The notes beneath the pieces were generated by a model. It saw only the letters and a list, made by a program, of their open reading frames with translations. It was not told the origin of the DNA and made no database searches. DNA of 20,000 nt from an uncultured virus (IMG/VR IMGVR_UViG_3300028805_000002) (taxonomy: Duplodnaviria; Heunggongvirae; Uroviricota; Caudoviricetes). The DNA lies in the IMG/VR virus record IMGVR_UViG_3300028805_000002; one strand, 5' to 3'. The stretch's first letter is position 1. The number at the start of each line of letters is the position of its first letter. The position numbers and the translations under genes are program-made. This document shows, one piece after another, positions 1-8,556 of the stretch.

Positions 1-18
1 TTGATGGCGCGTTCTATC

Positions 19-162
19 TTACCTCTTCCCATATATGCACTCCCTGGTAAGATACTGGCGAGTGCCCGGGACAATCTTCAGACAGGTCTGAAGTCCGTTT
101 CTCTTAATGAGTTCCCGATACGGAATCTTGTATGTGATTGTGGATTTTGCTGTGTTGGTCAT
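19..162 (-). CDS. Small hypothetical protein, 47 aa (MTNTAKSTITYKIPYRELIKRNGLQTCLKIVPGTRQYLTRECIYGKR)
   Basis: Translated by hand (below the ORF-track cutoff). ATG at 162-160, strong SD AGGAGGA (complement of 172-178), TAA at 21-19. Confidence 0.55.
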   Translation of the reverse strand: MTNTAKSTITYKIPYRELIKRNGLQTCLKIVPGTRQYLTRECIYGKR

Positions 163-225
163 AGTGTAATTTCCTCCTAGGGGATATTTACTTCCCTATT
201 CCTATCTTCCCATTTATATGTTCCC

Positions 226-264
226 ATACAAAACACTCCCTTGCCTGTATAGGCTGAGGGAGTG
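226..264 (-). terminator. Probable intrinsic terminator (or processing hairpin) downstream of the 167-aa gene
   Basis: Stem CACTCCCT(234-241)/AGGGAGTG(257-264) with inner GCCT/AGGC, followed on the - strand by TTTTGTAT. Confidence 0.5.
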
Positions 265-370
265 CTGAGTTGTGCGCTTTAAAGTGCCCAGTTGCGTGTC
301 GCGTGTTTATGCGGGTTCACGCGTTTCCGTTCTGTCTACCGTATGGTGTCTTCCCGTATGAGGCTATGCC

Positions 371-874
371 TCAGAATCCTAAGACCTCTGCAACACCGTC
401 CCAGTTCTCTACCTTGAGGGCATATTCATTTGCCCAACCCTCGTGATGTTCCCAGTCGGAGCGTGTAGCCTTGAGTTCCTTGCCAGGGAAAACCCAGGCG
501 CCGTCCTTGAGCGGTCTGATACGAGCGTAGGCTGTCTTGTCTCCCTCTACCTTAGAGATGAGGATGTGTCCCTTCGCGTTTGTTCTGAAGATGTACTTGT
601 CCTTCGGGATGTCTGCTAAGAAGGCGTCGGCAGTGGGGTGCTTGCGTTCCTTCTTCTCTGCGGGTGCTTCCGGTGTCGGCTCTGCAGGTGTCTGTTCTGC
701 GGGAATCTCTTCCTGAGTCTGTTCTGCGAGTGCCTTCTGTTCTGTCTGATATGCTTCAAAGATAGGCATAAAGTCAACTTTGGGCATCTGTTCTGTCTTG
801 CCGTCAACTATGCGGGCAAAGTATGTCTTGTGATTTGTCTTGTATTCTGTGCCGTTGTATGTAAACTGTGTCAT
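371..874 (-). CDS. Hypothetical phage early-type protein, 167 aa, two domains joined by a Pro/Glu/Ala-rich linker
   Basis: ORF track gives 371..946. The real start is most likely ATG at 874 (MTQFTYNG), preceded by SD AGGAGGA (882-888). Linker EIPAEQTPAEPTPEAPAEKK. No family recognised. Confidence 0.8.
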   Translation of the reverse strand: MTQFTYNGTEYKTNHKTYFARIVDGKTEQMPKVDFMPIFEAYQTEQKALAEQTQEEIPAEQTPAEPTPEAPAEKKERKHPTADAFLADIPKDKYIFRTNAKGHILISKVEGDKTAYARIRPLKDGAWVFPGKELKATRSDWEHHEGWANEYALKVENWDGVAEVLGF

Positions 875-956
875 AATAAAATCCTCCTGTGATTTTGTAA
901 AATTGATTTTTTGATGTGGTGCAACTGAACACTTTAACGCGCACAACTCAGTGGCG

Positions 957-1365
957 CACGTTTTCGAGTGCTTTACTTTTGCGCATTGTTATATGCGCTT
1001 AGAAGTACAGGTCATCGTGTAAATCTTCGTGTAATTTGCGCGCGCTTGTAATTACGATTGTGTCGTTATACTCATCATTGACGCAAGTACGATAGAATAA
1101 GAAGAAATCATCAAATTCGGCACAATGTGAATTGAGTTCTGTAATACAGTCAAATATTATCTTTTCGATATTTTCAAATTCGCTGTAAAAGTCTTTATTG
1201 ATACAGCACAAAAAAGCATTACAATTTATCGCTTCATCAAATTGTGCTAAATTGTATTTTTCAAGAATTGAATAGTAGAGTTCATAATTTTTTGTCATTG
1301 TCTTTTATCTCACTTTCATTAGATTTTTTGAGACAATGCGCAAAAACAAAACACTCGAAAACGTG
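957..1365. repeat. 33-bp inverted repeat pair (957-989 / 1333-1365) enclosing the 99-aa ORF
   Basis: CACGTTTTCGAGTGCTTTACTTTTGCGCATTGT vs ACAATGCGCAAAAACAAAACACTCGAAAACGTG: 30/33 complementary. All 3 mismatches are G-T/G-U on the - strand. Confidence 0.95.
999..1298 (-). CDS. Small acidic, Cys-containing hypothetical protein, 99 aa, lacking Gly, Pro and Trp
   Basis: A 300-nt ORF in otherwise stop-rich AT-rich DNA. GG-free SD-like GAAAGTGAG (1316-1308) before the ATG. About 20 D/E vs 7 K/R, and 6 Cys. Confidence 0.7.
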   Translation of the reverse strand: MTKNYELYYSILEKYNLAQFDEAINCNAFLCCINKDFYSEFENIEKIIFDCITELNSHCAEFDDFFLFYRTCVNDEYNDTIVITSARKLHEDLHDDLYF

Positions 1366-2301
1366 ATATTTTGCGCGATATTTTGCACTTTGCATACATT
1401 TTGCGCTTAGATAAAATCAATTATCTAAGAATAGAGCGCGCACTTATAAAATACAGATAGACTTTCAAATTTACTCTAACAAACAATAGTGTTTGAGTGC
1501 ATTTCACAGCGTAGTAATGAACAAGACTTCAATACAACTATGCAACAAGTATATTGTCGTTCGCGTTTACTAATAATTCGCGCATAGTGTTTTTCTACTA
1601 TTCGCACTATTTCACAACAGTGCTATTTTATGACTGTTTATAGCAATAAACTCAAAAATCAACTAATTTTATAGTTAGTATTCACATACTAATAACTATT
1701 ATGCAATTCGTTTATCTAGTGAATTATAACAGCACTCGATTATAATAATCACGTACTATATTATTACACTTTACTATCAACACAGCGCAAACGATTAAAT
1801 AGTTAAGTCTTGTTTTAGAATGATTATATTGTCGAACTAAAGTGTTAAATAATGCACATTACAAGTTACTTTGAGTGTAAGACAATACACTACACAAAAT
1901 ACTTTTATTAGTTTTTTCTTTTGTGTTTTACGTTTTATCACGTTCTAAAACAGTGTCACTAATTACTTAAAAGAAACACAGTGTATTTTTTCAAGTATCA
2001 TTCACTAAACGCGTAAAAGACTAGTGATTTTTATCTGTATTTATTTGTCAAGTTACAGTGTTATTACTTAAAGTATTCGCAACAACTTTTTAGCACTCAT
2101 TACGCGTTAACTCGATATACTCGAATAATACGTTATACTTCAGCGCAAGAACTATAAACAACTAGTGATTATAGAGAACGTATGACTAACTTGTGTATGC
2201 TTGCTAGTTCGTTCTTTTGTTATGCATAGAGTAACGCTTATTAAACGATATTTCAATACAACTTTTGACTTATTTGTTCGATAACGAACAAAAACACGTC
2301 A
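1121..2301. other. GG/CC-dinucleotide-free tract
   Basis: Read base by base: last GG at 1119-1120, next GG at 2302-2303; no CC on the + strand between 888 and 2738. Confidence 0.9.
1460..2300 (-). ncRNA. Candidate large structured non-coding RNA or ssDNA element (unassigned)
   Basis: No convincing ORF. Nested helices 1520-1529/1805-1814, 1557-1565/1786-1794, 1619-1630/1725-1736, 1884-1891/1980-1987, 1915-1922/1969-1976, 1924-1930/1946-1952, 2104-2113/2229-2237. Confidence 0.35.
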
Positions 2302-2352
2302 GGTTGTTCGATAAATACATTAAAACAATAATAATTTATCATTATTCGATAA
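2274..2352. repeat. Three copies of TT(G/A)TTCGATAA; the first also forms the hairpin TTTGTTCG-ATAA-CGAACAAA
   Basis: Copies at 2274-2284, 2304-2314 and 2342-2352. Confidence 0.7.
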
Positions 2353-2409
2353 ACGCTATATAATATGCTTATTATATATAATAAATACGCGTATGCGCAT
2401 GGGGTAATA

Positions 2410-2430
2410 TGATAATGATTATCATTTTCA
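2410..2430. promoter_or_regulatory. Fur-box-like operator
   Basis: TGATAATGATTATCA (2410-2424) is a perfect 7-1-7 TGATAAT-N-ATTATCA. 2411-2429 matches the classical GATAATGATAATCATTATC at 17/19. Confidence 0.6.
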
Positions 2431-2626
2431 AATTCATACATTAGTCTAGTTAGTATCTTTATATAACAGATTATTAGTGTATAGCGCTGTAACGCTCATA
2501 TTTAACGTATAACGCGCTCTAGCACTTATACACAAGAATTTATATTCACAGCGCACGAGCGCGTCACAGATCAAATTTAAAATTTAAGTTAGCACGCATA
2601 TACAAGCGCATACACACGGGCATATT

Positions 2627-2656
2627 TATACGCACGCGCGCGCGCGCACGTACACG
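2627..2656. repeat. 30-bp perfect alternating purine-pyrimidine tract containing (CG)6; Z-DNA-prone
   Basis: TATACGCACGCGCGCGCGCGCACGTACACG. Confidence 0.85.
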
Positions 2657-2817
2657 GGATTCTCGAACTCTTACGTCGAACTTTGTAGACAAGTATGCGC
2701 GGTGCTTGAAAATAGAGGGGATTGGGCATAAAAGTAATCCTAGAGGTGGGTAGGTCGAGTGTGGTAGTAAGGTCGTTCAAGAACGACAGGAAAGGCGTGG
2801 AAAATTAAAAGTAAAAT

Positions 2818-2838
2818 TGAGAATGATTATCATTTTCA
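2818..2838. promoter_or_regulatory. Second Fur-box-like operator, upstream of the morphogenesis operon
   Basis: TGAGAATGATTATCATTTTCA, 20/21 identical to 2410-2430. Confidence 0.55.
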
Positions 2839-2868
2839 GTTTCAAGGTCGAGGTTTGTAGACAAAGTC

Positions 2869-2898
2869 TTGACTAATAGTAGGAGTATGTGTTATTTT
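2869..2898 (+). promoter_or_regulatory. Putative sigma-A promoter for the rightward operon
   Basis: TTGACT (2869-2874), 18-nt spacer containing TG, then TATTTT (2893-2898). Confidence 0.35.
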
Positions 2899-3016
2899 GT
2901 ATATGTAATTGGAGAGATACAATGTTATCGAGGGTCTCTTAGTAAGTCGCCGCAGGGCGCAGGAACGACGGGTGATTAACAGTATATCTTTAGTTATAGA
3001 AGGATAATATAAATAT

Positions 3017-3277
3017 ATGGAAAATGAAACACTAGCAACTGAAATGTTGCACGAACTGAAATCGAATGGCCGAAGGTGGTTTATAGCATTTCTAGTCGTT
3101 CTAATGCTTTGGTTTGCTACTATCGGTGCGTTTCTTTGGTATATCTCTTTGCCCGTGGACGAAACTTCGGTGGAACAGTATGCCGAAGGCAACGACAATT
3201 CTTTTGTTGGTATAGGTGATATGAATGGCGGCGTATCAGAAAGTTACAAGACGCAGGAGAGCACTTCGCAGTCGTAA
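3017..3277 (+). CDS. Small single-pass membrane protein, 86 aa
   Basis: Hydrophobic stretch WFIAFLVVLMLWFATIGAFLWYI after RR; AAGGA SD upstream; first gene of the operon. Confidence 0.75.
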   Translation: MENETLATEMLHELKSNGRRWFIAFLVVLMLWFATIGAFLWYISLPVDETSVEQYAEGNDNSFVGIGDMNGGVSESYKTQESTSQS

Positions 3278-3302
3278 GTCAACCCGTAGAAGGAGACACT
3301 AA
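3225..3302 (+). CDS. Arg-rich 25-aa peptide (MAAYQKVTRRRRALRSRKSTRRRRH)
   Basis: Translated by hand. SD AGGTGA at 3214-3219, ATG at 3225, TAA at 3300-3302, 2 nt before the next ATG. 10 Arg, 2 Lys, no acidic residues. Confidence 0.5.
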   Translation: MAAYQKVTRRRRALRSRKSTRRRRH

Positions 3303-3304
3303 TT

Positions 3305-3622
3305 ATGGCAGCGGCTGGTCAAACACGTACTATCAAAAAGTTACAACAGGCTCTCCAAATGGAAGGAGAGTTAATTCTTATCTCTACTTCTCAATTCTTT
3401 AGTTTGGAAAAGCAGACCACTGTAACAAGATACCACGTTAAGAAACAAGTTCAATCAGGTGAGAAGTATAAGTCTTCTCAGGTTGAACTTTTTTCTTCTT
3501 GTTCACAAATCCAGATTACTCTCTTTTTAAGAGATTATTATTACGAGATTAAAGGATATGAGGTGCCGCAGGATAATCCTTATTGGTTAGCGGCAAAGAA
3601 GAAATATTTTGAGGAGCATTAA
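3305..3622 (+). CDS. Hypothetical phage protein, 105 aa
   Basis: ORF with AAGGAG SD, tightly packed before terS. Confidence 0.8.
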   Translation: MAAAGQTRTIKKLQQALQMEGELILISTSQFFSLEKQTTVTRYHVKKQVQSGEKYKSSQVELFSSCSQIQITLFLRDYYYEIKGYEVPQDNPYWLAAKKKYFEEH

Positions 3623-3624
3623 GT

Positions 3625-4143
3625 ATGGCTGAAAAGAAGAAGAAACCGGGTTATGGTGGAAATCCTAAAGGGTCTGAATATAAACTCTCTATCAGAGAGC
3701 AAAAGTTCGTGTCTCTCTATTTAGAGTACGGTGACCCGAAGAAAGCAGTTGTTGAGGCAAAGTTCAATACTACTGCACCTAGTCAGTACGCTAAGAAACT
3801 CTTGGCTAAGCCGAAAATTCAAAGAGAGATTGCATCACAAATGGAACTCTTTAGAAATGAGTGTATCGCCAGTTCGCAGGAGATTATGAACTTCTACACT
3901 CTCACAATGCGTGGAGAAGTTAAAGACCAGTTCGGTCTTGACGCTACTCTTTCTGACAGACTTAAGGCGGCTGATGCGCTCGCTAAGAGACAGATTGACG
4001 CCAGAGCACTTGCAGAGAAGGCGAGTGACAATGAGTTTAAGGTTACACTTACTTGGGGTGCACCTGCTACTCCTGAGCCTAAACCTGAAGAAGATTTAGA
4101 TGACACCGCTGATGAAGAGGAAGACATAGATGCCGAACAGTAA
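3625..4143 (+). CDS. terS: Terminase small subunit (Terminase_2 / SPP1 G1P-like)
   Basis: N-terminal HTH pattern LSIREQKFVSLYL...AVVEAKF...LLAKPKIQREI and the IAS.QEIM.F.T..MRGEVKDQFGLDATLSDRLKAA..LAKR segment; lies upstream of terL. Confidence 0.9.
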   Translation: MAEKKKKPGYGGNPKGSEYKLSIREQKFVSLYLEYGDPKKAVVEAKFNTTAPSQYAKKLLAKPKIQREIASQMELFRNECIASSQEIMNFYTLTMRGEVKDQFGLDATLSDRLKAADALAKRQIDARALAEKASDNEFKVTLTWGAPATPEPKPEEDLDDTADEEEDIDAEQ

Positions 4144-5821: not shown

Positions 5822-6439
5822 ATGAGCGAGATGTTAAACCTGCTAACTATGGCGTTTGACGGTGTTGGTGAGTACAACATACCGCAAATTAAGCCAGTTA
5901 CTGAACTCTATGTCAAAGATTGGATAGGGTTTAACTTCGTAGCGTCCACAAGAAAGCAACGAGAAATCACAGGCGTACATTTTTACATAGACGATTATCA
6001 ATTTGAGCGTGTTTGGAACTTTCCTTGGCGCTTTTCCAAGACTTTTAACGAGTTCGGAGCGATAATGACGCCCGATTTCTCAACTTATCTTGATTTTCCT
6101 AAAGCAGTTCGCATATTTAACCACTATCGTAAGCATTGGTGTGGCGCTTATTGGCAAGAAATGGGCGCAACAGTCATTCCTACGATAGAGTGGGGCACTG
6201 AAGAGGACTATTCTTGGTGTTTTGATGGTGAACCAGAAGGAGGAATAGTGGCTGTTTCTAATGTAGGCATTATGCGAAGTAAAGAACTGCGTGAAAATTA
6301 TATGAAAGGCTACAAAGAGATGCTTACAAGACTTCAACCAAAGGAAGTTTTAATGTTTGGGCATATCTTTGATGATTATCCTGGTCCTGTTCATTACATT
6401 CACTATCAGCAAGCAAAGGGTGAACAAGGAGAAGAATAA
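5822..6439 (+). CDS. DUF4417 family protein
   Basis: Signature motifs HFYIDDYQFERVWN, TPDFSTYLDFP, HWCGAYWQ, VIPTIEWG, CFDGEP, VAVS. Confidence 0.9.
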   Translation: MSEMLNLLTMAFDGVGEYNIPQIKPVTELYVKDWIGFNFVASTRKQREITGVHFYIDDYQFERVWNFPWRFSKTFNEFGAIMTPDFSTYLDFPKAVRIFNHYRKHWCGAYWQEMGATVIPTIEWGTEEDYSWCFDGEPEGGIVAVSNVGIMRSKELRENYMKGYKEMLTRLQPKEVLMFGHIFDDYPGPVHYIHYQQAKGEQGEE

Positions 6440-6777: not shown

Positions 6778-8556
6778 ATGAGCGTATGGTCAACTATAAC
6801 AGAAAAGGTAAAGGGGATTATAACTAAAATGATTGGTAGACAAGACATTGAAGAAGTATTGAGAGTAAAACCCGCAATTTCTAACGAAATGGTGCAGGCC
6901 ATTGAGTTATGGTCGGCTATGTATGAGGGAAGAGCGCCGTGGCTCAAAGAGCCAACAAAAGATGACCCGTCAGCAGTTAAATCGTTAGGATTACCTCAAC
7001 TTATTGCGAGTGAAAAAGCGAGAACGGCGCTTATTGAGTTCGAGAGTGAAATTACAACACCTATTCTCGATAGCGAGCCTGCTACTCCCAACTATCTGAA
7101 CAAGGATAATGTAGGAACAGACGGTCAACCCGAGCCGATGGTATCTACACCTCTTGTTATGAAGGATATTCCTAAGGGTAGTACAAAAAGAGCACAGTTT
7201 CTTAATAAACAGTATGTAAAACTCAAAGAGGCACTTCGTATTCAACTTGAGTACGGTATTGCAAAGGGTGGACTTGTTGTTAAGCCCTACATAATTAAGC
7301 ATAACAATCAGACGCTTCATCAAGAAACAGATATGATGACAGGTGAAAAGAGTCAAGACGAGAGCGACACTGGTTATGAGTTCGAGTTTGACTACATTCA
7401 GGCAAACGAGTTCTATCCTCTCGCATTTGACGGAAGCGGAAAGATGACTGAAGCCGCCTTTATTCAGCGAAAGGTAGATAAGGACATTATTTACAGCCGT
7501 CTTGAATATCACAAGTTGGAAGATAACACTGTTACAGTTATAAACAAGGCGTTTAAGGCAAACTCTCGTTCTATGAAGGCGGACTATCTTGGAGAGGAAA
7601 TTCCGCTTACAGATGTTCCAGAGTGGGCGATGCTCTCAGCAGAAACGAAGATTGCCAATGTAAATCGTTTGCTTTTTGCGTACTTTAAGATGCCTGAAGC
7701 AAACACGATTGATACACACAGTCCTCTTGGTGTAAGTGGCTTTGATAAAGTTAAGAGCCTTATAGCGGAAGCCGATAGACAGTATTCAAGACTTCTTTGG
7801 GAGTTCGAGGGTGGCGAACTTGCTATTGATATTGATAGAAACGCGCTGACTTGGCTTGAAGACCCGAAGAATCCTGAAAGCGGTCACTCTGTTATGGGAA
7901 CATTACAGAACAGGCTTTATCGTAAAGTTGACCTTAATGAAGACAATACGTATGAAGTTTTCTCTCCTACACTTAGAGACCAGTCGATTATAAACGGACT
8001 TAACTGTATCTTAATGAGAATAGAAGACGGCGCTGGAATTTCTCGTGGCACTCTTTCTGACGTTGTAAGCGAGGCTAAGACCGCGACAGAGTTAAGAATG
8101 TTGCGTATTAGAAGTTATGAGACCAACGCACACATACAGAAAGCCACAGAGAAGATGCTTAGAGACGTTATATATGTAATGAATGTCTACTGTGACCTTT
8201 ACAAAATTACAGAAGAGGGCGAGTATGAGGTATCATTTGAGTGGGATGACAGTATTTTGAGCGATAGCGATACGGAACTTACAAAGAGAATGATACTTAT
8301 GCAGAATGGTCTTGCTGGTAAGGTTGAAACTCGTATGTGGTACTTTGGCGAAACAGAGCGTCAGGCAAGAGAGGCACTTATCAAAATTCAGCAAGAAAAT
8401 CTTGAGGCTGTTCAGCAGAATGTTGCCGAAATGGAAATACTCGGACAAACACCAGAAAGTCAAAAGAACGAAAGTCCAAAAGCACCCAACAATAACAACA
8501 ACAATAACAGCAACAATAATTTTAAGAGTGGTGACAATCAATATAGCAACAAATGA
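6778..8556 (+). CDS. Portal protein (A118/SPP1 Gp6-like)
   Basis: 592 aa after terL; motifs YFKMPEANTIDTHSPLGVS, QYSRLLWEFEGGE, KTATE, VSFEWDDS. Confidence 0.92.
   Translation: MSVWSTITEKVKGIITKMIGRQDIEEVLRVKPAISNEMVQAIELWSAMYEGRAPWLKEPTKDDPSAVKSLGLPQLIASEKARTALIEFESEITTPILDSEPATPNYLNKDNVGTDGQPEPMVSTPLVMKDIPKGSTKRAQFLNKQYVKLKEALRIQLEYGIAKGGLVVKPYIIKHNNQTLHQETDMMTGEKSQDESDTGYEFEFDYIQANEFYPLAFDGSGKMTEAAFIQRKVDKDIIYSRLEYHKLEDNTVTVINKAFKANSRSMKADYLGEEIPLTDVPEWAMLSAETKIANVNRLLFAYFKMPEANTIDTHSPLGVSGFDKVKSLIAEADRQYSRLLWEFEGGELAIDIDRNALTWLEDPKNPESGHSVMGTLQNRLYRKVDLNEDNTYEVFSPTLRDQSIINGLNCILMRIEDGAGISRGTLSDVVSEAKTATELRMLRIRSYETNAHIQKATEKMLRDVIYVMNVYCDLYKITEEGEYEVSFEWDDSILSDSDTELTKRMILMQNGLAGKVETRMWYFGETERQAREALIKIQQENLEAVQQNVAEMEILGQTPESQKNESPKAPNNNNNNNSNNNFKSGDNQYSNK
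8488..8520 (+). repeat. (AAC/AAT)n trinucleotide run encoding the portal's poly-Asn tail
   Basis: AACAATAACAACAACAATAACAGCAACAATAAT = NNNNNNNSNNN. Confidence 0.8.

What the first reader, a model, noticed from the sequence alone, without database searches (positions are those of the whole stretch)
887..1456. A gene held in the loop of a long imperfect stem that ends at the next gene's RBS
Seen: nested complementary blocks 957-989/1333-1365 (30/33), 938-943/1372-1377, 919-924/1383-1388, 914-917/1396-1399, 901-910/1413-1422 (10/10), 892-900/1444-1452 (8/9) and 887-890/1453-1456. The 343-nt loop holds the 99-aa ORF and its SD. The base of the stem abuts the AGGAGGA SD of the 167-aa gene. All three mismatches in the 33-bp core are G-U/G-T on the - (coding) strand, which points to single-strand folding rather than a dsDNA protein site. 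A competing local hairpin (CTTAGATAA/TTATCTAAG, 1406-1429) overlaps one arm, so it could act as a switch. Inference: an RNase III-processed or circularising mRNA cassette (compare T7 early or rRNA processing stems), an Frpo-like ssDNA structure, or an exchangeable cargo slot in a large structured RNA.
Basis: partly seen in the sequence, partly recalled or inferred. Interest (0 to 1): 0.8.

Follow-up and report, generated by a model that had tools for sequence, protein, structure and literature searches.

The report
Phage genes each enclosed by pairing repeats
In a rumen phage and three of its relatives, the first two or three genes of one operon are each enclosed by their own 25-34-base inverted repeat, most likely RNA stems that cut or stabilise each message separately.

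Summary
The 33-bp core repeat (957-989/1333-1365, 30/33) around the 99-aa gene is real. The outer "nested blocks" that were said to extend the stem to the next gene's ribosome-binding site pair no better than shuffled sequence.

The repeat is not alone. A second one (265-295/921-951, 28/31) encloses the 167-aa gene and lies 5 nt from the first. Three related phage contigs carry 2-3 abutting gene-enclosing repeats at the same place, giving 10 cassettes in 4 phages. Arm sequences differ between cassettes. They also differ between homologous cassettes of different phages, yet each pair stays about 90% complementary.

No recombinase was found, and there are no target-site duplications and no shared arm motif. 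In metatranscriptome contigs from another study, 3 of 4 coverage holes fall on repeat arms. Two contig ends that carry adapter sequence lie 3 nt either side of one arm.

Best reading (about 0.5): per-gene long-range RNA stems in a polycistronic early transcript that act as double-strand-specific processing or stability elements.

Weak points:
- The G·U bias towards the gene strand is only 14:6 (p = 0.058).
- RNA strand and exact ends are not established.
- Inversion could not be tested on reads.

This is a new variant of a known kind.

The parts
1333..1365 (-). 5' arm (in gene-strand sense) of cassette B, the repeat around the 99-aa gene
   Evidence: Pair probability is about 1 in the minus-strand ensemble. 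It is missing from RNA-run X4 contigs (gap 1330-1374) but spanned by X3 contig 1008-2207.
957..989 (-). 3' arm of cassette B
   Evidence: It begins 9 nt after the stop codon. X4 contig 954-1329 keeps it and ends with adapter sequence at 954. It is missing from X3 (gap 919-1007).
999..1298 (-). 99-aa ORF (p99), an acidic orphan protein and the cargo of cassette B
   Evidence: No Pfam or PHROG family. Only 3 homologue clusters at 65-75% identity, and 1 representative in 1.84 billion. AlphaFold model pLDDT 78.5; no Foldseek PDB match at E <= 0.001.
1299..1332 (-). 5' UTR of p99 with an SD-like GAAAGTGAGAT (1317-1307). Conserved with the first cassette of L094, although the ORFs differ.
   Evidence: local alignment: 49 identical positions in 58 columns, including two 2-nt gaps. 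ORFs unrelated by BLASTP (E 0.085) and by hhalign (probability 1.3%).
921..951 (-). 5' arm of cassette A, the repeat around the 167-aa gene. It lies 5 nt from the 3' arm of cassette B.
   Evidence: 28/31. Absent from both RNA runs (X3 gap 919-1007, X4 gap 913-953). Adapter-bearing contig ends lie at 918 and 954.
265..295 (-). 3' arm of cassette A
   Evidence: By record length, RNA contigs would end inside it at about 274 (X3) and about 291 (X4), assuming they stay colinear beyond the laid stretch.
371..874 (-). 167-aa ORF (p167) with SD AGGAGGA at 884-890, the cargo of cassette A
   Evidence: No Pfam or PHROG family. A homologue at 31% identity (E 8e-16) sits in the second cassette of L094.
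952..956 (.). 5-nt linker between the two stems
   Evidence: In the relatives the equivalent gaps are 0, 2, 3, 4 and 12 nt.
19..162 (-). 47-aa ORF (p47), the third gene of the operon. Its homologues sit inside cassettes in L084 and L094. Here the would-be partner arm lies beyond the window start.
1366..2211 (-). AT-rich, ORF-poor stretch upstream of the first cassette that is present in RNA-library contigs; presumed leader of the leftward transcript
   Evidence: contigs 1008-2207, 1375-1968 and 2051-2211; nothing at 2212-2917. Minus-strand fold z is -3.1 against -1.0 for the plus strand, from 20 shuffles.
1406..1429 (.).
   Evidence: It forms in the folds of both strands. No evidence of function.

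Best explanation
The first genes of the phage's leftward operon of small accessory genes are transcribed as one RNA. That operon diverges from the terminase and structural operon. In the RNA, each gene, with its ribosome-binding site, is enclosed by its own 25-34-bp near-perfect long-range stem. Each stem is formed by a cassette-specific inverted repeat, and neighbouring stems abut (0-12 nt apart).

These duplexes are long enough to be substrates of the host's double-strand-specific RNase III. I infer that they define processing and stability units: the polycistronic RNA is cut at or beside the stems into single-gene messages whose ends are held in a duplex. This resembles the way the flanks of 16S and 23S rRNA are paired and cut.

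The inner part of the first stem plus the 5' UTR is conserved between two phages while the ORF inside is unrelated. The unit therefore also behaves as a slot in which cargo genes are exchanged.

Shown:
- the repeats, their recurrence and their placement;
- the divergence of arm sequence with complementarity retained;
- presence of the region in RNA libraries, with holes at the arms.

Inferred:
- that the stems form in vivo;
- which nuclease cuts and where;
- the effect on expression.
For: 1. Recurrence. Ten gene-enclosing inverted repeats occur in 4 phages: the window (2), L084 (3), L078 (2) and L094 (3). All are on the operon strand at the promoter-proximal end and all abut. Their scores are 17-24. 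Block-shuffled copies of about 250 kb gave 1-5 hits at score >= 14 per replicate.
2. The arms share no common sequence or terminal motif. The p167-type cassettes of the window and L094 have proteins 31% identical. Their arms share only a TGTGCGC core, and the rest differs yet pairs within each phage.
3. In the cases resolved, the arms lie outside the ORF and its ribosome-binding site: 8-99 nt after the stop and 14-46 nt before the start.
4. In folds of the whole arrays on the gene strand, every stem forms, with mean pair probability 0.84-0.98. Duplex energies are -27 to -50 kcal/mol.
5. Mismatches: 14 are G·U on the gene strand against 6 on the other strand. The gene-strand duplex is the more stable in 6 of 10 stems, equal in 1 and less stable in 3.
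6. RNA-library contigs come from one sample of another study and are 100% identical to the window. They cover 300-2211 and 2918 onward but not 2212-2917. Three of their 4 internal holes lie on arms (X3 919-1007; X4 913-953 and 1330-1374; the exception is X4 1969-2050). Contig ends at 918 and 954 run into adapter sequence, meaning they are molecule ends 3 nt either side of arm 921-951. The DNA run is continuous across the region.
7. No intrinsic-terminator-like site lies on the minus strand between 1365 and 265.
8. Long-range intramolecular duplexes across hundreds of nucleotides are documented RNase III targets in Bacillus subtilis mRNAs (PMC11780869; abstract and passages read).
Against: - The strand test is weak. 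The 14:6 split gives a one-sided p of 0.058, and in L094 the other strand is favoured in all three stems. Eight of 28 mismatches are non-wobble, and the overall spectrum looks close to neutral.
- None of the 10 stems has a bulge or indel. That also fits homogenisation of the two arms at the DNA level.
- The two adapter-bearing RNA ends lie just outside a duplex, not inside it with a 2-nt stagger as classical RNase III cuts would.
- Each arm is present in at least one RNA run, except 921-951.
- The evidence is contigs from a single sample. Strand, true ends and library chemistry are unknown. A duplex-sensitive library step could create the holes.
- The design was seen in only 3 of the 10 related contigs that extend 3 kb or more upstream.
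Confidence: 0.5

Rival explanations
1. The same RNA stems form but are not cut. They act as insulators or stabilisers. Possible roles are to fold each cistron independently of the long structured leader, to hold the 5' and 3' UTR together (as in B. subtilis hbs mRNA), or to block exonucleases.
For: The in-silico stems are the same as in the main reading. A 14-bp 5'/3'-UTR interaction that modulates RNase Y cleavage is documented for hbs (PMC5737220, abstract read). X3 contig 1008-2207 and X4 contig 954-1329 run through intact arms.
Against: From recalled knowledge of RNase III, duplexes of 25-34 near-perfect base pairs are expected to be cut by it in almost any bacterium. RNA contig holes and adapter-bearing ends sit at the arms.
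Confidence: 0.15
2. DNA-level switch. Each cassette is an invertible segment, flipped by homologous or site-specific recombination between its own arms, which turns single early genes off in part of the phage population.
For: The arm length (25-34 bp) and loop size (317-707 bp) are typical of invertons (recalled). Stems without indels at about 90% identity fit concerted evolution of the arms. Unique arms would prevent recombination between cassettes. The complete relative encodes RecA and RecU. Putative viral invertons have been reported (PMC13501310, passages read).
Against: - No serine or tyrosine recombinase was found among 83 of the 122 called ORFs scanned in the complete relative G001, nor among 16 window ORFs.
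- No arm motif is shared between cassettes.
- Mismatches sit in the middle of the arms.
- All 10 cassettes have their main ORF in the operon's direction.
- The DNA run gives one continuous contig with no joints, though contigs hide minority forms.
- Inversion does not explain the holes and ends seen in the RNA libraries.
Confidence: 0.12
3. Module-boundary relics. The repeats are by-products of how accessory genes were inserted or swapped (cassette ends used in recombination between phages) and have no role in expression today.
For: The cassettes lie in the variable part of the genome. p99 and p167 are absent from 5 related phage records. A relative in run X5 diverges just upstream of the p167 gene. 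The window and L094 share the UTR and inner stem but not the ORF.
Against: - There are no target-site duplications (flanks printed) and no transposase.
- Each repeat occurs only as one pair.
- The repeats persist around homologous genes whose proteins have diverged to 31-64% identity, while the arm sequences have changed. Retention that long needs selection or continual homogenisation.
Confidence: 0.15
4. Paired protein-binding sites that loop the DNA around each gene.
For: Short motifs recur in the region: CACTCGA 4 times and GCGCAAAA 4 times.
Against: Every cassette has different arms. One protein could not read them all, and ten different proteins are implausible.
Confidence: 0.03

Closest known systems
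RNase III processing stems that enclose 16S and 23S rRNA in the rRNA operon precursor (PMC6582327, abstract seen in search listing)
   Same: Sequences flanking each unit of a polycistronic RNA pair over hundreds to thousands of nucleotides. Each unit sits in the loop of its own stem, and the stems follow one another along the transcript.
   Different: Here the units are protein-coding genes with their ribosome-binding sites in a phage operon. The stems are near-perfect and unbranched. Cleavage is not shown.
Long-range intramolecular duplexes cut by RNase III in Bacillus subtilis mRNAs (PMC11780869, abstract and passages read)
   Same: [quoted passage not shown]
   Different: Those are scattered single sites in cellular mRNAs. 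They are not arrays of abutting stems that each enclose a whole gene, and the passages I read describe none that enclose a gene. The host here is unknown.
RNase III sites of the phage T7 early region
   Same: A phage early polycistronic transcript is cut into single-gene mRNAs whose ends carry stem remnants that stabilise them.
   Different: T7 sites are local hairpins between genes. Here the two halves of each stem lie on opposite sides of the gene, so the 5' and 3' ends of one message would pair with each other.
ORF-bearing intervening sequences of 23S rRNA, for example Coxiella burnetii (PMC4990558, abstract seen in search listing; earlier findings e1-1503900 and e1-940277)
   Same: A small gene sits in the loop of a stem formed by the ends of an insert, and RNase III excises the insert.
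   Different: The cassettes here are not in rRNA. Their cargo is not an S23p four-helix-bundle protein (no Pfam hit). The arms are unique sequences, not heptamer arrays.
5'/3'-UTR pairing in single bacterial mRNAs: hbs of B. subtilis (PMC5737220, abstract read); icaR of S. aureus (recalled)
   Same: The two untranslated ends of one cistron pair with each other and change how ribonucleases act on it.
   Different: Those duplexes are about 14 bp, occur in one gene and overlap a cleavage site or SD. Here the duplexes are 25-34 bp, do not touch the SD, and repeat gene after gene.
Invertons, DNA segments flipped between inverted repeats (PMC13501310, passages read)
   Same: Inverted repeats of similar length flank segments of a few hundred bp.
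   Different: No recombinase was found, there is no shared repeat consensus, whole genes rather than promoters are enclosed, and no flipped form was seen (contigs only).

Membership tests
RNase III processing stems (rRNA-operon or T7-early type) | A duplex of about 20 bp or more formed by sequences flanking the unit | tested here: met
   Ten stems of 25-34 bp, 86-96% complementary, -27 to -50 kcal/mol, mean pair probability 0.84-0.98. In silico only.
RNase III processing stems (rRNA-operon or T7-early type) | Both arms lie on one transcript | tested here: inconclusive
   RNA-library contigs cover 300-2211 with holes, and no minus-strand terminator-like site lies between the arms. No single contig spans both arms of a pair, and the strand is unknown.
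RNase III processing stems (rRNA-operon or T7-early type) | Staggered cuts inside the duplex that depend on RNase III | tested here: inconclusive
   Adapter-bearing RNA ends at 918 and 954 lie 3 nt outside arm 921-951, not inside it. Enzyme dependence is not testable with these tools.
RNase III processing stems (rRNA-operon or T7-early type) | Pairing conserved while sequence changes | tested here: met
   Homologous cassettes of the window and L094 have largely different arms that remain complementary within each phage. There are too few sequences for a formal covariation test.
Inverton (recombinase-driven invertible segment) | Site-specific recombinase encoded nearby or in the genome | tested here: not met
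   No resolvase/invertase or tyrosine recombinase among 83 of the 122 called ORFs scanned in complete relative G001, which carries two cassettes. None among 16 window ORFs. The remaining G001 ORFs and the rest of the window's own genome were not scanned.
Inverton (recombinase-driven invertible segment) | Both orientations present in sequencing reads | not testable with these tools
   Only contigs were available. No joints were reported at the arms, and the DNA contig is continuous.
Inverton (recombinase-driven invertible segment) | Repeats of one system share a recognisable consensus | tested here: not met
   Arm sequences differ between all cassettes except for short GC-rich cores.
TIR transposon / MITE | Target-site duplication next to the terminal repeats | tested here: not met
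   The 8-nt flanks printed show no direct repeat for any of the 7 pairs listed there. The three L094 pairs were not inspected for this.
TIR transposon / MITE | Several copies with the same terminal repeats, and a transposase somewhere | tested here: not met
   The arm pattern occurs only as its own pair in the window. No exact match in viral contigs. No transposase; the IstB-like hit sits with the DnaB/primase replication genes.
Integron-like or Xer-type cassette array | Integrase, and junction sites that are local imperfect palindromes with a shared consensus | tested here: not met
   No integrase. Each junction consists of two unrelated arms whose partners lie on the far sides of the neighbouring genes.
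ORF-bearing rRNA intervening sequence | Inserted in rRNA and carrying an S23p-family ORF | tested here: not met
   No rRNA or other Rfam family in 1-4000. No Pfam family for p99 or p167.

The most novel reading that the evidence does not exclude
A family of rumen phages packages its first early genes as modular, self-closing 'panhandle' messages. Each gene is flanked by a private stem that excises it from the polycistronic RNA and keeps its two ends paired. The conserved inner stem plus 5' UTR forms a standard slot into which unrelated cargo genes are swapped between phages. In the form hinted at by run X4, the 5' arm is cut off on both sides and could stay annealed to the message's 3' end as a protective clamp acting in trans.
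Probability: 0.2. Interest if true: 0.8.

Novelty: new variant of a known kind. Interest (0 to 1): 0.66.

Why it matters
If the stems work as proposed, this is a compact way for a phage to set the fate of each early message separately from a single promoter. It extends the rRNA-operon logic of enclosing each unit in its own stem to protein-coding genes.

It would also give a sequence-independent signature, abutting private inverted repeats around small genes, for finding early or accessory gene modules in uncultured phages. A natural design for insulated, exchangeable expression cassettes would follow.

The claim is directly testable with end-mapping RNA-seq, RNase III digestion and compensatory mutations.

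Four full-text searches found no description of gene-enclosing stem arrays in phage operons. The library lacks most subscription journals, so an older description cannot be excluded.

Tried and rejected
Searches for related DNA
- The window's own genome is not held.
- No DNA match in GenBank phages for 1-3300, and no tblastn match for p99.
- Loci encoding p99 relatives were sought in viral, genome and metagenome contigs, and loci encoding p167 relatives in viral contigs. None was found. Covariation within the p99 cassette itself is therefore untested.
- The exact arm pattern has 0 hits in viral contigs.
- A 17-mer palindrome search gave 71 loci, mostly chance. Four of them (L011, L052, L060, L066) proved to be relatives.
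- The two-copy TTTGTAGATAAAGT pattern and the p47 alignment each found only the L084 contig again.

Annotation
- Rfam found nothing but a sub-threshold miRNA hit, and there are no tRNAs.
- p99 function: no family, no remote homologues, and no structural match at E <= 0.001.

Readings tested and dropped
- Arms as promoters: by my reading of the sequence there is no -10-like hexamer at the right distance from the ends at 918 and 1329, and the arms share no motif.
- All-against-all duplexfold of intergenic segments in G001: energies tracked segment length and were not interpretable, so this was dropped.
- A more sensitive scan that allowed G·U pairs found no further cassettes downstream in the operons. 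The genes there are packed with gaps mostly under 30 nt.

Other
- Runs X5-X11 hold only small shares of the stretch. X5, when laid, is a relative that shares 411-889 and 2560-3300 only. No claim about habitat is made from these runs.
- Earlier-findings look-ups by place and by sequence returned nothing.
Full report
**Setting**

The window is part of a tailed phage genome. On the plus strand from about 3017 lie two small conserved genes, then small terminase, large terminase, a DUF4417 gene, portal, minor head protein, scaffold and major capsid.

On the minus strand lie three small genes:
- p99, 1298 down to 999;
- p167, 874 down to 371, with AGGAGGA at 884-890;
- p47, 162 down to 19.

Between the two gene sets lies an AT-rich (26-33% GC), ORF-poor stretch of about 1.7 kb. 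No whole genome is held for the window. Runs that hold the sequence are labelled sheep gut metagenomes.

**The observation**

The 33-nt inverted repeat 957-989/1333-1365 is real. It is 30/33 complementary, and 0 of 200 shuffles gave two matches. Its three mismatches are transitions that read as G·U on the gene strand.

The further nested blocks exist as strings but are not more than chance. Pairing between flanks 887-956 and 1366-1456 gains -4.9 kcal/mol, and shuffles average -4.9; 143 of 300 shuffles do as well. With wider flanks, z is -1.5. Four of the six blocks have pair probabilities of 0.05 or less. The claim that the stem's base reaches the next gene's ribosome-binding site therefore falls.

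Whole-region fold z-scores (-3.1 on the minus strand, -3.8 on the plus strand) reflect the core repeat and do not pick out a strand.

**The repeat is one of a series**

My own scan for inverted repeats found a second pair, 265-295/921-951 (28/31). It encloses the p167 gene and its ribosome-binding site, and it ends 5 nt from arm 957-989 (confirmed with the repeat finder).

Relatives were found through the large terminase (21 loci) and through the 105-aa protein (18 metagenome loci). They show the same design at the same place, the promoter-proximal end of the operon that diverges from the terminase operon:
- L084: 63-87/465-489, 490-514/832-856, 859-890/1386-1417.
- L078: 6022-6048/6605-6631, 6635-6660/7225-7250.
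- L094: 4258-4285/4652-4679, 4684-4717/5425-5458, 5471-5504/5867-5900.

This makes ten cassettes in four phages:
- arms are 25-34 nt;
- 267 of 295 positions are complementary;
- loops are 317-707 nt;
- gaps between neighbouring arms are 0-12 nt.

Block-shuffled copies of all sources gave 1-5 repeats at my score threshold of 14 per replicate, against scores of 17-24 for the cassettes.

The design is not universal. It was seen in 3 of the 10 related contigs that extend at least 3 kb upstream. The others either lack it or have other kinds of repeat.

Further down the operons no more cassettes were found even when G·U pairs were allowed. The genes there are packed too tightly to hold arms.

**What the cassettes hold**

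Each loop holds one or two small ORFs on the operon strand. Where the start is clear, the 5' arm ends 14-46 nt before the start codon and upstream of the ribosome-binding site. The 3' arm begins 8-99 nt after the stop.

Gene content is partly shared between phages. p47-type genes sit in cassettes of L084 and L094. A p167 homologue at 31% identity (E 8e-16) sits in the second cassette of L094.

p99 is an orphan:
- no Pfam or PHROG family;
- three homologue clusters at 65-75% identity;
- one representative among 1.84 billion;
- a confident alpha/beta model (pLDDT 78.5) without a structural match at E <= 0.001.

p99 and p167 are absent from five related phage records, three of which are at least 90% complete.

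**Arm sequences differ but stay paired**

No two cassettes share arms, and no terminal motif is common to them. The one exception is a short TGCTTGTGTG core shared by two L094 cassettes.

In the homologous p167-type cassettes of the window and L094, the arms share only a TGTGCGC core. The remaining roughly 20 positions differ yet are complementary within each phage. The proteins have diverged to 31% identity, so unconstrained non-coding sequence would have randomised. The repeats have therefore been kept, either by selection for pairing or by continual homogenisation of the two arms.

In the first cassette, the window and L094 share the inner 13-14 bp of the stem and the whole 5' UTR down to the start codon. 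That alignment has 49 identical positions in 58 columns, including two 2-nt gaps. The ORFs inside have no detectable similarity at the DNA or protein level.

**RNA or DNA?**

*For RNA*
- The stems form in every gene-strand fold.
- Each cassette has private arms, which suits base pairing and not a shared protein site.
- The arms avoid the ORF and the ribosome-binding site.
- No minus-strand terminator-like site lies between them.
- Mismatches favour G·U on the gene strand, 14 against 6, with 8 non-wobble.
- Gene-strand duplexes are more stable in 6 stems, equal in 1 and less stable in 3.

The strand bias is only suggestive (one-sided p = 0.058). L094 goes the other way in all three stems. A coding-strand C-to-T mutation bias could contribute to the bias (inference).

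*RNA-library evidence*

The most direct hint comes from two metatranscriptome runs from one sample of a different study. Their contigs match the window without a single difference.
- They cover 300-2211 and 2918 onward but nothing in 2212-2917. Uniform DNA carry-over would not look like that.
- Three of the four internal holes lie on repeat arms: X3 919-1007; X4 913-953 and 1330-1374. The exception is X4 1969-2050.
- The contig ending at 918 and the contig starting at 954 both run into sequencing-adapter letters, as expected for real molecule ends. Together they bracket arm 921-951 by 3 nt on each side.
- The DNA run is one continuous contig across the region.

Limits of this evidence:
- contigs cannot give strand or level;
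- there is one sample only;
- a duplex-sensitive library step could create the holes;
- the ends lie beside, not inside, the duplex;
- each arm except 921-951 is present in at least one of the two runs.

*Against a DNA switch or a mobile element*
- The complete relative G001 (72,967 nt, carrying two cassettes) encodes a replisome, RecA, RecU and glycosyltransferases. No serine or tyrosine recombinase, transposase, reverse transcriptase, RNase III or RNA ligase was detected in the 83 of 122 called ORFs that I scanned.
- No target-site duplications flank the arms.
- All ten cassettes point the same way.
- Inversion itself could not be tested, because only contigs could be laid.

**Mechanism proposed**

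The leftward transcript starts near 2211, the upper limit of RNA coverage in both runs. No convincing sigma-70 promoter was identified there. It runs through an 850-nt structured leader and then through the cassettes.

Each gene's flanks pair into a 25-34-bp duplex. From recalled knowledge of RNase III, duplexes of that length and perfection should be cut by it. PMC11780869 shows that long-range intramolecular duplexes are its natural mRNA targets in B. subtilis.

Cutting at or next to the stems would release single-gene messages with paired ends, giving them individually set stability. This is inferred and not shown. A non-cleaving insulator or stabiliser role is the nearest rival; hbs is a precedent (PMC5737220).

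**Comparison with known systems**

The logic is that of the rRNA operon, where each unit sits in the loop of its own processing stem, and of ORF-bearing rRNA intervening sequences. It also parallels T7 early mRNA processing, but T7 uses local hairpins (recalled).

The feature does not meet the defining features tested for invertons, TIR elements, integron-like arrays or rRNA intervening sequences (see membership table).

Four full-text searches found no description of gene-enclosing stem arrays in phage operons. The library lacks most subscription journals.

**Verdict**

The core observation is right, and the extension of the stem to the next gene is wrong. The feature is larger and more regular than reported. 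I rate it a new variant of a known kind, with about 0.5 confidence in the RNA-processing reading and about 0.65 that the stems act at the RNA level in some way.

Noticed in passing
window 900-2700: The AT-rich, ORF-poor region is studded with GC islands. GCGC occurs 27 times against 7.9 expected from dinucleotides. CpG and GpC observed/expected ratios are about 1.9-2.0, against about 1.0 in the rest of the window. L084 and L094 have a comparable GCGC-rich, ORF-poor stretch at the same place, judged by reading their sequence.
   Followed up: partly
window 1366-2211: This stretch has no credible ORF, yet it is present in RNA-library contigs at depths similar to the p99 gene. The minus strand folds better than shuffles (z -3.1; -204 kcal/mol) while the plus strand does not (z -1.0; -161 kcal/mol). 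It may be a long structured leader or a non-coding RNA. No Rfam family matches.
   Followed up: partly
window 2401-2700: This has the strongest local fold signal of the region on the minus strand (z -4.1 to -4.4 in 200-nt windows). It includes an alternating CG run at about 2631-2650. It lies in the part with no RNA-contig cover (2212-2917).
   Followed up: no
window 2410-2436 and 2818-2844; L011 4024-4057; L060 5755-5788; L052 1587-1619: A 27-34-nt element built around the palindrome AATGATTATCATT occurs twice upstream of the structural operon. In three relatives it occurs again inside the head-gene region. It may be an operator or another protein site.
   Followed up: partly
window 2675-2692 and 2847-2864; L084, L094, L096, L097 (two copies each); L066, L073, L106: TTTGTAGAYAAAGT is conserved in the close relatives, usually as two copies 166-172 nt apart just upstream of the first rightward gene. 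A sigma-70-like site (TTGACT, 18 nt, TATTTT with TG) lies at 2869-2898, and the RNA contigs of the rightward side begin at 2918 and 2942.
   Followed up: partly
L110-L113 (record G001, the complete relative): The related phage encodes two TET-associated glycosyltransferase-family proteins plus nucleotidyl- and cytidylyltransferase-like proteins. These sit next to its own DNA polymerase A, DnaB, primase, clamp and clamp loader, RecA and RecU. This suggests hypermodified DNA and a virulent lifestyle; no integrase was found.
   Followed up: no
window 5822-6439: A DUF4417 gene (PHROG annotation: nuclease) sits between the large terminase and the portal gene.
   Followed up: no
L082 2236-2299, 2370-2419, 2670-2707, 3331-3393, 4138-4172: A more distant relative carries a 35-63-nt, very AT-rich element in several inverted copies. 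This is a different kind of repeat from the private gene-enclosing pairs.
   Followed up: no
L094 7075-7099 / 7346-7370: A further 25-nt inverted repeat (CGCACGCACACACACGCATATATAA) lies in the ORF-poor region of L094, and weak inverted repeats are in excess there (13 against 0-3 in shuffles).
   Followed up: no
window 300-918 versus 954-2211 (run depths): In both RNA runs the contig over the p167 gene has a higher depth figure (82 and 72) than the contigs over p99 and the leader (48, and 10-13), although p167 lies further from the presumed promoter. Contig depths are a poor measure, so this is only a hint of differential stability or an internal start.
   Followed up: no
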